From NCBI RefSeq assembly GCF_009914755.1, contig NC_060933.1: a stretch of 64,000 nucleotides of DNA; one strand, written 5' to 3'. Positions 45,166 to 46,206 of the stretch are shown one piece after another. Source of the DNA: the human T2T-CHM13v2.0 reference genome, Homo sapiens. The notes under the pieces are model-generated. The model was not told the DNA's origin and ran no database searches. It worked only from the letters and a program-made list of their open reading frames with translations. Both the position numbers and the translations under genes were made by a program. Position 1 is the first letter of the stretch, and every line of letters begins with the position of its first letter.

Positions 45166-45378
45166 CTCGGAAAGGGAACTCCCTGACCCCTTGCGCTTCC
45201 CAGGTGAGGCAATGCCTCGCCCTGCTTCGGCTCGCGCACGGTGCGCACACACACTGGCCTGCGCCCACTGTCTGGCACTCCCTAGTGAGATGAACCCGGT
45301 ACCTCAGATGGAAATGCAGAAATCACCGTCTTCTGCGTCGCTCACGCTGGGAGCTGTAGACCGGAGCTGTTCCTATTC

Positions 45379-45388
45379 GGCCATCTTG
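45379..45388 (-). promoter_or_regulatory. YY1 binding site of the L1 promoter (CAAGATGGCC)
   Basis: ggccatcttg on +, at the canonical position near the L1 5' end. Confidence 0.9.
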
Positions 45389-45399
45389 GCTCCTCCGCA

Positions 45400-45419
45400 G
45401 AGGTTTGTTTTTTTTTTTT
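45400..45419 (+). repeat. L1 target-site duplication, right copy, ending at a TTTT/AA endonuclease site
   Basis: gaggtttgtttttttttttt|aaatgg. Confidence 0.85.
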
Positions 45420-45701
45420 AAATGGAGTTTCGCTCTTGTTGCCCAGGTTGGAGTGCAATGGCGCAGTCTCGGCTCACTGCAACCTCCGCCTCCCAGGTTC
45501 AAGCAATTCTCCTGCCTCAGCTTCCCGAGTAGCTGGGATCACAGGCATGCGCCACCATGTCCAGCTAATTTTTGTATATTTAGTAGAGACGGGGTTTCAC
45601 CATGTTGGCCAGGCTGGTCTCAAACTCGTGACCTCAGGTGAGCCACCCGTCTCGGCCTCCCAAAGTGCTGGGATTACAGGCGTGAGCCACTGCGCCCAGC
45701 C
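45408..45701 (-). mobile_element. AluSq/Sx-like element whose tail was the L1 target; its TSD ccttgttgaggtttg lies at 39335-39349 and 45702-45716
   Basis: Full dimer; the 15-bp TSD copies are now ~6.4 kb apart. Confidence 0.95.
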
Positions 45702-46014
45702 CCTTGTTGAGGTTTGATGATGGTGGGGCCATTATGTTCTCTGCCCTTGAACTGCTTACTTATATTGGTTTCTCCAGCACTTCCTAAAAGATGAATTGGC
45801 ATGAAATTGATTCAAAGCACTACCATAGTTTGTTTCTCTTGGTCGTAAAAGATTTGTTCACTCAAGAAACACTGAGTAGGGAGAGGCTCAGGTGTTTCGA
45901 AAGTTATTTTTGGGTTTTAGAAATGTTTATTGGTTTGGCTAAACCAGCTGCTTTTGCTGATACTCTCCAGTATGTGTTTTCATTTAATTTTAAGGTGCTC
46001 TTTTCTTCTTTTAG

Positions 46015-46206
46015 GATCTCATTTTGCCCAACGGTGGTACTCCAGCAGGTACTTCAAGTCCAGCTTCTTCATCTTCCCTTCTCAACAGACTTCAGCTTGA
46101 TGATGATATTGATGGTGAGACTAGAGATCTCTTCGTTATAGTCGATGATCCCAAGAAGCATGTGTGTACAATGGAGACTTACATCACCTATAGGATCACC
46201 ACCAAA
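46015..46206 (+). CDS. SNX30: SNX30 coding exon (exon 2), 192 nt, phase 0-0, DLILPNGG...YRITTK; start of PX domain
   Basis: Polypyrimidine tract + ttag acceptor ending 46014; donor AAA|gtaggt at 46207. Translation [64 protein letters not shown] is recognised as SNX30 (SNX7/30 PX N-terminus). Confidence 0.95.

What the first reader, a model, noticed from the sequence alone, without database searches (positions are those of the whole stretch)
45212..46206. L1 antisense promoter could restart SNX30 in frame: L1 5'UTR ATG spliced to exon 2
Seen: on +, an ATG at 45212 (GCAATGC) opens 29 codons, [29 protein letters not shown], with a second ATG at 45290. The run ends exactly at a candidate donor CCG|GTACCT (45298/45299). 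87 nt is phase 0, and exon 2 begins in phase 0 just 716 nt downstream. Established: the L1 antisense promoter drives spliced chimeric transcripts into downstream host exons (the L1-MET type). Inference: L1 demethylation could produce an SNX30 isoform whose exon-1 N-terminus is replaced by an L1-derived peptide (or just MNP) while PX and BAR are kept. It would exist only on alleles carrying this young L1. Caveats: stronger upstream donors (45056, 45204 CAG|GTGAGG, 45285 CTA|GTGAGA) compete, and ORF0 would act as a uORF.
Basis: partly seen in the sequence, partly recalled or inferred. Interest (0 to 1): 0.8.

Follow-up and report, generated by a model that had tools for sequence, protein, structure and literature searches.

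The report
In-frame L1-to-SNX30 splice path, untested
The start codon, splice-donor-like site and reading-frame match are really in the sequence, but they are generic features of a well-known, essentially fixed 'hot' L1 element in SNX30 intron 1, the frame match is at chance level, the donor is weak, and no published catalogue I could read lists an L1-SNX30 transcript.

Summary
ATG 45212 opens 29 codons that end at CCG|GT (45298|45299). A second ATG lies at 45290. The intron to exon 2 is 716 nt, and exon 2 is phase 0 because the exon 1 coding part is 156 nt.

None of this is special to the locus except the frame match. The 93-nt ATG-to-donor stretch is identical in 10 of 10 L1 copies I fetched. 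The GT is the antisense half of the GGTACC palindrome that also holds the known sense donor G98U99 and RUNX3 site. Phase-0 open paths occur at 9 of 25 GT sites, which is chance.

On a crude matrix built from recalled frequencies, the donor is weak: 627 of 4004 GTs in the window score as well. Stronger upstream donors, notably CAG|GTGAGG at 45204, would remove the ATG, and ORF0 precedes it as a 71-codon upstream ORF.

The L1 is the known 9q32 hot L1HS in SNX30. It is a reference element, was found in 12 of 12 cell lines, and has a reported 100% population frequency.

SNX30 is absent from the three L1-chimera supplement sets I could read. The isoform remains an untested, low-probability prediction.

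The parts
39350..45399 (-). Full-length L1HS (Ta-type by a recalled 3'UTR diagnostic), poly(A) tail included. This is the known 9q32 / SNX30 'hot' source L1.
   Evidence: ORF1 and ORF2 are intact with L1 domains. The 5' end and YY1 box are at 45379-45388. It is the only L1 5'UTR in the whole SNX30 span. Literature: hg38 chr9:112798107-112804159, minus strand, L1HS REF, gene SNX30; hg19 chr9:115560407-115566439, minus strand, 9q32; SNX30 named as a source locus.
39587..43414 (-). L1 ORF2, 1275 codons, open.
   Evidence: Pfam Exo_endo_phos 1.7e-20 and RVT_1 6.3e-47.
43478..44494 (-). L1 ORF1, 338 codons, open.
   Evidence: Pfam Transposase_22 7e-66 and two further L1 ORF1 domains.
44800..45000 (+). 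Expected L1 antisense promoter region (L1 +400 to +600).
   Evidence: Positions come from a passage of Kaer 2011. They are mapped with window = 45400 minus L1.3 position, anchored on the sense donor G98U99. Promoter activity was not tested here.
44950..45165 (+). ORF0, 71 codons, start context tgggcaATGg. It acts as an upstream ORF for any transcript that keeps 45212.
   Evidence: Two splice donors inside ORF0 are described in a review passage.
45053..45061 (+). Donor-like CAG|GTGTGG (GT at 45056). ORF0 is in phase 1 here, so it is out of frame with exon 2.
   Evidence: matrix score 4.12; 47 of 4004 GTs score as high.
45115..45123 (+). Donor-like CGG|GTGGGA (GT at 45118). ORF0 is in phase 0 here, so it is in frame with exon 2.
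   Evidence: score 1.82, U1 duplex -9.6 kcal/mol, 176 of 4004.
45138..45146 (+). Donor-like CAG|GTGCAT (GT at 45141). ORF0 is in phase 2 here, out of frame.
   Evidence: score 1.55, 211 of 4004.
45201..45209 (+). Strongest donor-like site, CAG|GTGAGG (GT at 45204). It lies after the ORF0 stop and 8 nt before ATG 45212, so its use deletes the proposed start codon.
   Evidence: score 7.1, U1 duplex -11.6, 5 of 4004.
45212..45298 (+). Unspliced, the ORF continues to 45421.
   Evidence: No Pfam family.
45296..45304 (+). It is the antisense half of the GGTACC palindrome that carries the sense-strand donor G98U99 and the RUNX3 core site.
   Evidence: score -0.65, U1 duplex -4.3, 627 of 4004 GTs score as high.
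45408..45701 (-). Older Alu, antisense in an SNX30-direction transcript. It has acceptor-like AGs (first exon bases 45447 and 45497) and a strong donor-like CAG|GTGAGC (GT at 45638).
   Evidence: A 45497-45637 exon would be 141 nt with 5 stops in the frame that continues phase 0.
45702..45716 (.). 15-nt direct repeat, also at 39335-39349. It flanks Alu plus L1 and is read as the Alu's target-site duplication. An 8-nt copy (45400-45407, equal to 39342-49) sits between the L1 5' end and the Alu tail and is read as the L1's own duplication.
   Evidence: printed flanks. The order of insertion is inference.
46015..46206 (+). SNX30 exon 2, phase 0, 64 codons. The first in-frame ATG inside it is at 46171.
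   Evidence: and the hub annotation.

Best explanation
The stretch 45212-45399 is the first ~190 nt of the 5'UTR of a full-length L1HS, read on its antisense strand. On the L1's own strand it is the sense-promoter core, with the YY1 box and the RUNX3 site. The 29-codon ATG run and the GT at 45299 are by-products of that conserved sequence. The GT exists because GGTACC is a palindrome whose other strand is the known sense donor G98U99.

The frame match with SNX30 exon 2 is a one-in-three coincidence. The element is the already described, essentially fixed 9q32 hot L1 in SNX30 intron 1. It is heavily methylated in most cells.

If its bidirectional promoter is demethylated, antisense transcripts could reach exon 2 (inferred). 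Splicing should then favour the stronger donors at 45204, 45056 and 45141 (inferred from crude scores). Those give a non-coding leader carrying ORF0, or out-of-frame ORF0 fusions. The proposed ATG45212-45298|46015 isoform would be at most a minor, poorly translated product.
For: Shown here:
- Identical 93-nt ATG-to-donor stretch in 10 of 10 fetched L1 copies; 1955 first-look candidates genome-wide.
- Palindrome and sense donor G98U99 within a RUNX3 site conserved in L1PA1-L1PA10 (passages). RUNX3 at +83 to +101 and antisense promoter at +400 to +600 (passage).
- 9 of 25 GT sites are phase-0 open.
- Donor ranking by a recalled-frequency matrix and by U1 duplex energy: 45204 scores 7.1 / -11.6; 45056 scores 4.12 / -7.1; 45118 scores 1.82 / -9.6; 45141 scores 1.55 / -6.8; 45285 scores 1.55 / -4.6; 45299 scores -0.65 / -4.3.
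- The ORF0 ATG has a purine at -3 and G at +4. It ends 46 nt before ATG 45212.

Identity of the element:
- Only one L1 5'UTR in the SNX30 span.
- Supplement row 'chr9:112798107-112804159:-:L1HS:REF full-length SNX30 ... Rodriguez-Martin_2020:128;Tubio_2014:6'.
- 9q32 minus-strand reference L1 with 26 transductions in colorectal tumours.
- SNX30 named as a source locus.
- 100% population allele frequency, and overall methylated and silent in normal colorectal clones.
- Twelve methylation values: one at 0.135, two at 0.52-0.55, nine at 0.89-0.98.

Absence of reports:
- SNX30 has 0 occurrences in 10 supplement files of Criscione 2016, 3 of Pinson 2022 and 1 of Honda 2020.
- 0 papers hold both SNX30 and L1HS.
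- Of the papers holding SNX30 with LINE-1 (5 found, 4 listed) or with retrotransposon (4), none has a title or abstract about a chimera. I opened only one of them.
Against: - A weak matrix score does not exclude use. The annotated exon 3 donor CCC|GTAGGT scores only -0.37 on the same matrix, and the exon 2 donor 2.84. The matrix is built from recalled approximate frequencies, not MaxEntScan or SpliceAI.
- The sense half of the same palindrome is a proven donor, though a rarely used one.
- This particular L1's promoter is demonstrably active in many tumours on the sense side: 128 and 6 events in the supplement row and 7% of transductions in colorectal cancer. One of twelve methylation values is 0.135. 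Antisense transcription at this locus is therefore plausible.
- The catalogues searched are EST-based, brain/glioma, or from one cell system. Files may have been cut when stored, and none covers tumours chosen for 9q32 activity.
- If some antisense start sites lie downstream of 44950, ATG 45212 would be the first AUG. I could not read the start-site mapping papers.
Confidence: 0.75

Rival explanations
1. On demethylation, the antisense promoter produces an appreciable mRNA spliced 45298|46015 and translated from ATG 45212 or 45290. The product is SNX30 with its 52-residue exon 1 N-terminus replaced by 29 (or 3) L1-derived residues, with PX and BAR kept.
For: The frame, distance, open reading and lack of poly(A) signals are confirmed. 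PX lies downstream. The locus promoter is active in tumours. The palindrome's other strand is a functional donor.
Against: It is the weakest of six donor-like sites. Four stronger sites lie upstream of ATG 45212 (45056, 45118, 45141, 45204) and would remove it. A fifth, at 45285, keeps the ATG but is out of frame. A 71-codon ORF0 with a strong start context lies 46 nt upstream. The Alu decoy sites are in the way. There is no SNX30 entry in three chimera catalogues and no RefSeq model starting in the L1 (hub table).
Confidence: 0.06
2. An ORF0-SNX30 fusion protein. The ORF0 AUG (44950) is read through to the non-consensus donor at 45117|45118 (or 45075|45076) and spliced to exon 2 in frame. This would give ORF0 residues 1-56 (or 1-42) fused to SNX30 from exon 2 onward.
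For: Both paths are phase 0 and open to the end of exon 3. It uses the first AUG, so there is no upstream-ORF problem. ORF0-exon fusions are a described class: 57 of about 3200 loci (passage).
Against: The two donor-like sites inside ORF0 with a CAG|GT consensus (45056, 45141) are in phase 1 and phase 2, out of frame. I take these to be the two published ORF0 donors from a review passage and recall; I did not see their positions in print. Use of 45118 is not documented in anything I read. SNX30 is not in Criscione's tables, which cross-reference the ORF0 fusions.
Confidence: 0.05
3. The L1 5'UTR matters to SNX30 as an enhancer or as a source of transcriptional interference, rather than as an alternative promoter.
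For: The hub table lists RefSeq 'enhancer' features at 44618-45245 and 45246-45871, over the 5'UTR and Alu. Minigene work shows that L1 5'UTRs interfere with host transcription and splicing (passages). Intronic L1 methylation tracks host-gene transcription (abstract).
Against: Nothing was tested here. The basis of the RefSeq features is unknown to me. Mappability in a young L1 is poor, so assay signals there may be family-wide rather than specific to this locus.
Confidence: 0.15

Closest known systems
L1 antisense-promoter chimeric transcripts (L1-MET type; 988 genes catalogued by Criscione et al. 2016)
   Same: A full-length young L1 lies antisense in an intron, upstream of a coding exon in the gene's direction. 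The alternative start would skip the first coding exon, the typical case described in that paper (passage).
   Different: No RNA evidence for SNX30. The gene is absent from that paper's 10 supplement files and from two further catalogues.
ORF0-exon fusion proteins (Denli et al. 2015; known to me from review and secondary passages, original not held)
   Same: An L1-encoded antisense peptide fused to host exons through donors in the 5'UTR.
   Different: The consensus-like ORF0 donors are out of frame with exon 2.
The 9q32 'hot' source L1 (Tubio 2014, Rodriguez-Martin 2020, Cajuso 2019, Nam 2023, Lanciano 2024)
   Same: It is this element: same gene, strand, length and class.
   Different: Those studies concern sense-strand activity (retrotransposition, 3' transduction, promoter methylation). 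In the passages and rows I saw, none describes antisense output into SNX30.
Sense-strand L1 donor G98U99 (spliced integrated retrotransposed elements, Larson et al. 2018)
   Same: The same six-base GGTACC palindrome supplies the GT. That paper attributes its conservation to the RUNX3 site, not to splicing.
   Different: Opposite strand. The exon-side bases are GAG on the sense strand and CCG on the antisense strand, which is a poorer match. Even the sense donor is used rarely.

Membership tests
L1 antisense-promoter chimeric transcript | Full-length L1 with a 5'UTR that includes the +400 to +600 antisense promoter region. | tested here: met
   The 905-nt 5'UTR (44495-45399) is present and ORF0 is intact. 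The region is mapped.
L1 antisense-promoter chimeric transcript | L1 antisense to the gene, upstream of an exon with a usable acceptor, and no intervening poly(A) signal. | tested here: met
   L1 on the minus strand, SNX30 on the plus strand. Exon 2 lies 616 nt beyond the L1 end. The acceptor tract is 79% pyrimidine, and there is no AATAAA or ATTAAA in 44800-46015.
L1 antisense-promoter chimeric transcript | Observed spliced RNA joining the L1 5'UTR to a host exon. | not testable with these tools
   No RNA data were available. Indirect evidence is negative: 0 occurrences of SNX30 in the supplements of three catalogues, and no RefSeq transcript starts in the L1 (hub table).
L1 antisense-promoter chimeric transcript | Promoter hypomethylated where the transcript is expressed. 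| tested here: inconclusive
   Twelve published methylation values: one at 0.135, two at 0.52-0.55, nine at 0.89-0.98. I did not see the column header. The element is methylated and silent in normal colorectal clones.
ORF0 fusion protein | ORF0 AUG joined in frame to a host exon through a donor inside ORF0. | tested here: inconclusive
   The consensus-like donors at 45056 and 45141 are in phase 1 and 2, out of frame. The weaker sites at 45076 and 45118 are in frame. Usage is unknown.
9q32 hot source L1 | Full-length L1HS on the minus strand in SNX30 at 9q32, a reference element. | tested here: met
   It is the only L1 5'UTR in the gene span and its ORFs are intact. Rows and the passage agree.
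L1HS Ta subfamily | ACA trinucleotide at the diagnostic 3'UTR place. | tested here: met
   The motif is found once, at 39473-39490 on the + strand as its reverse complement. The diagnostic itself is recalled, not taken from a call. The published row says L1HS.

The most novel reading that the evidence does not exclude
In tumours or embryonal-type cells where the 9q32 L1HS is demethylated, its antisense promoter makes a human-specific SNX30 isoform with an L1-encoded N-terminus. That N-terminus is either the 29-residue antisense 5'UTR peptide (through 45298|46015) or ORF0 residues 1-56 (through 45117|46015). The PX-BAR body is kept. The result would be a junction peptide restricted to cells where this L1 is demethylated, and possibly altered SNX4-SNX30 endosomal sorting.
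Probability: 0.06. Interest if true: 0.45.

Novelty: new member of a known kind. Interest (0 to 1): 0.15.

Why it matters
If real, this would add one more gene to a catalogue of roughly a thousand L1 antisense-promoter chimeras. It would have the small extra interest that the driver is one of the most active source L1s in human cancers, so the junction could mark its activation.

As it stands, the useful result is negative and clarifying:
- The ORF and donor are generic L1 sequence.
- The frame match is at chance level.
- The element is a known, essentially fixed hot L1.
- The claim that the isoform is allele-restricted is wrong.

Tried and rejected
- **Literature on antisense donor positions.** I looked for the published positions of antisense donors and start sites. 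Denli 2015, Mätlik 2006, Speek 2001 and Macia 2011 are not held. The two published ORF0 donors are therefore matched to 45056 and 45141 only by consensus and recall.
- **Further supplements.** I tried PMC12791003 and had planned PMC10619931. Paper reading closed, so these were not seen, nor was the column header of the methylation table. bioRxiv supplements are closed.
- **Proper donor scoring.** MaxEntScan and SpliceAI are not available. I used a position matrix from recalled approximate human 5' splice-site frequencies and a ViennaRNA duplex with the recalled 5' end of U1 snRNA. Both are crude: the matrix gives a real exon 3 donor only -0.37.
- **L1 inserted first, Alu second.** Rejected. 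That order would require loss of 7 nt of the duplication next to the L1 5' end. Alu first, then L1 into the Alu tail, explains all three repeat copies. This is inference.
- **A second full-length L1 in SNX30 as the published source element.** Rejected. BLAST of the 5'UTR against the whole gene span found only the window copy.
- In one search one putative Alu exon was given the wrong first base (45446 instead of 45447). I use only the 45497-45637 result from that part.

Full report
**1. The observation**

The + strand has ATG at 45212 (context gaggcaATGc). A second in-frame ATG is at 45290. GT follows at 45299 in CCG|GTACCT.

The distance to exon 2 (46015) is 716 nt. Exon 2 is open only in frame 1. 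I fetched exon 1 from the same genome. Its coding part, from the ATG to the donor AAG|GTGGGG, is 156 nt or 52 codons, so exon 2 does begin in phase 0.

One correction: left unspliced, the ORF runs on to 45421 (69 codons).

**2. What the sequence is**

The minus strand of 39350-45399 is a full-length L1.
- ORF1 has 338 codons and ORF2 has 1275 codons. Both are open and both carry the expected Pfam domains.
- A YY1 box lies at 45379-45388.
- The 3'UTR carries the trinucleotide I recall as diagnostic for the Ta subfamily.

I anchored L1.3 numbering on the published sense-strand donor G98U99 (passages). Window position then equals 45400 minus L1 position.

The GT at 45299 is the antisense half of the palindrome GGTACC. 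The sense half of that palindrome is G98U99. It lies inside the RUNX3 core site (+83 to +101), and the authors hold that site responsible for its conservation.

So the ATG run and the GT are generic L1 5'UTR sequence.
- The 93-nt ATG-to-donor stretch is identical in 10 of 10 fetched copies, own copy included.
- A genome search gave 1955 first-look candidates. Of the 40 that were scored, 37 are listed at 100% identity.

**3. Is the frame match more than chance?**

No. Of the 25 GT sites in 44900-45400 that lie downstream of an ATG, 9 are phase 0 with an open frame. That is 36%.

Two of them, at 45076 and 45118, put ORF0 itself in frame with exon 2.

**4. Identity of the element**

BLAST of the 905-nt 5'UTR against the whole SNX30 span found only this copy. 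The span was the window plus ten fetched stretches.

Published data agree on what it is.
- A supplement row of Lanciano et al. 2024 lists chr9:112798107-112804159, minus strand, L1HS, REF, full-length, gene SNX30. It was detected in 12 of 12 cell lines and carries the tags Rodriguez-Martin_2020:128 and Tubio_2014:6.
- Supplementary Data 4 of Cajuso et al. 2019 lists the 9q32 reference L1 on the minus strand (hg19 115560407-115566439) with 26 transductions. That is 7% of those in colorectal tumours.
- A Barrett's oesophagus study names SNX30 among known source loci.
- A preprint on normal colorectal clones gives 9q32 a 100% population allele frequency. It describes the element as overall methylated and silent there.

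Essentially everyone carries the element. It would still be human-specific if L1HS dating holds, which I did not test.

**5. How likely is the proposed path?**

Shown:
- The geometry is permissive. The antisense promoter region (+400 to +600) maps to 44800-45000.
- No AATAAA or ATTAAA lies before exon 2.
- The exon 2 acceptor has a 79% pyrimidine tract.

Against the specific path:

(a) The donor is weak on both crude measures.

| GT position | Sequence | Matrix score | U1 duplex (kcal/mol) | GTs in window scoring as high (of 4004) |
|---|---|---|---|---|
| 45204 | CAG\|GTGAGG | 7.1 | -11.6 | 5 |
| 45056 | CAG\|GTGTGG | 4.12 | -7.1 | 47 |
| 45118 | CGG\|GTGGGA | 1.82 | -9.6 | 176 |
| 45141 | CAG\|GTGCAT | 1.55 | -6.8 | 211 |
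| 45285 | CTA\|GTGAGA | 1.55 | -4.6 | 203 |

The four stronger sites upstream of 45212 would remove the ATG. The site at 45285 is out of frame.

(b) Any transcript that keeps 45212 also keeps ORF0. ORF0 has 71 codons, a start context with a purine at -3 and G at +4, and a stop 46 nt before 45212. By general knowledge of scanning, this disfavours both leaky scanning and reinitiation (inference).

(c) An antisense Alu (45408-45701) lies in the path. It has acceptor-like AGs at 45447 and 45497 and a strong donor-like CAG|GTGAGC at 45638. A 45497-45637 exon would bring 5 in-frame stops.

Caveat: my matrix uses recalled frequencies and is crude. It gives the real exon 3 donor only -0.37, so weakness is not exclusion.

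**6. Evidence on expression**

In print:
- SNX30 does not occur in the 10 held supplement files of the EST-based catalogue of 988 genes.
- It does not occur in the 3 files of the brain/glioma catalogue.
- It does not occur in the 1 file of the promoter-activation study.
- In the 9 held files of Lanciano 2024 it occurs only in the methylation tables of file 4, which was cut when stored.
- No paper holds both SNX30 and L1HS.
- The papers with SNX30 plus LINE-1 (5 found, 4 listed) or plus retrotransposon (4) do not concern chimeras by title or abstract. I opened only one of them.
- The hub table shows no RefSeq transcript starting in the L1.

For plausibility:
- The same promoter is clearly active on its sense side in many tumours.
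- One of twelve methylation values is 0.135 and two are about 0.5. I did not see the header, so I cannot say which cell lines these are.
- The authors of that study state that hypomethylation alone is generally insufficient for L1 expression, and that intronic L1 methylation follows host-gene transcription (abstract).

**7. Consequence for the protein if it did occur**

The 52 exon-1 residues would be replaced. Exon 3 matches Pfam PX from profile position 3 (E 7e-7), while exon 2 alone gives no Pfam hit. The PX-BAR body would therefore be kept.

With the strong donor at 45204, the first in-frame AUG would be at 46171 in exon 2. Five out-of-frame AUGs precede it.

**8. Verdict**

One claim, allele restriction, is wrong. 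Two relevant features were missed: the in-frame ORF0 donors and the Alu decoy. The element itself is already well known. RNA data would decide the matter, and I could not reach any.

Some supplements that might list this locus were therefore not seen.

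Noticed in passing
39587-44494 (minus strand): In this assembly both L1 ORFs are full length and open (338 and 1275 codons). A preprint on 64 haplotype assemblies says the hot 9q32 element is among active L1s with at least one ORF disrupted (passage). This suggests allelic differences at this source element. 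I did not compare it with other assemblies.
   Followed up: partly
39335-39349, 45400-45407, 45702-45716: A 15-nt direct repeat flanks L1 plus Alu together. Its last 8 nt recur between the L1 5' end and the Alu A-tail. The simplest reading is that the Alu inserted first (15-nt duplication) and the L1HS later landed at the Alu tail with an 8-nt or longer duplication. Three extra bases (45397-45399) sit at the L1 5' junction.
   Followed up: partly
45408-45701: The antisense Alu in SNX30 intron 1, 313 nt upstream of exon 2, carries a near-consensus donor-like CAG|GTGAGC (GT at 45638, matrix score 6.79). Acceptor-like AGs sit behind its T-run and pyrimidine stretches. It is therefore a candidate for Alu exonisation in ordinary SNX30 pre-mRNA too. 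No RefSeq exon is listed there (hub table).
   Followed up: no
45115-45123: ORF0 is in frame with SNX30 exon 2 through the GT at 45118 (CGG|GTGGGA) and through 45076. The two consensus-like ORF0 donors are out of frame.
   Followed up: yes
L011 3025 and 3166 (window -8975 and -8834): Two identical strong donor-like sites CAG|GTAAGG lie 141 nt apart in the SNX30 5' region, upstream of the coding ATG at window -7762. They may be alternative 5'UTR exon ends. I did not examine them.
   Followed up: no
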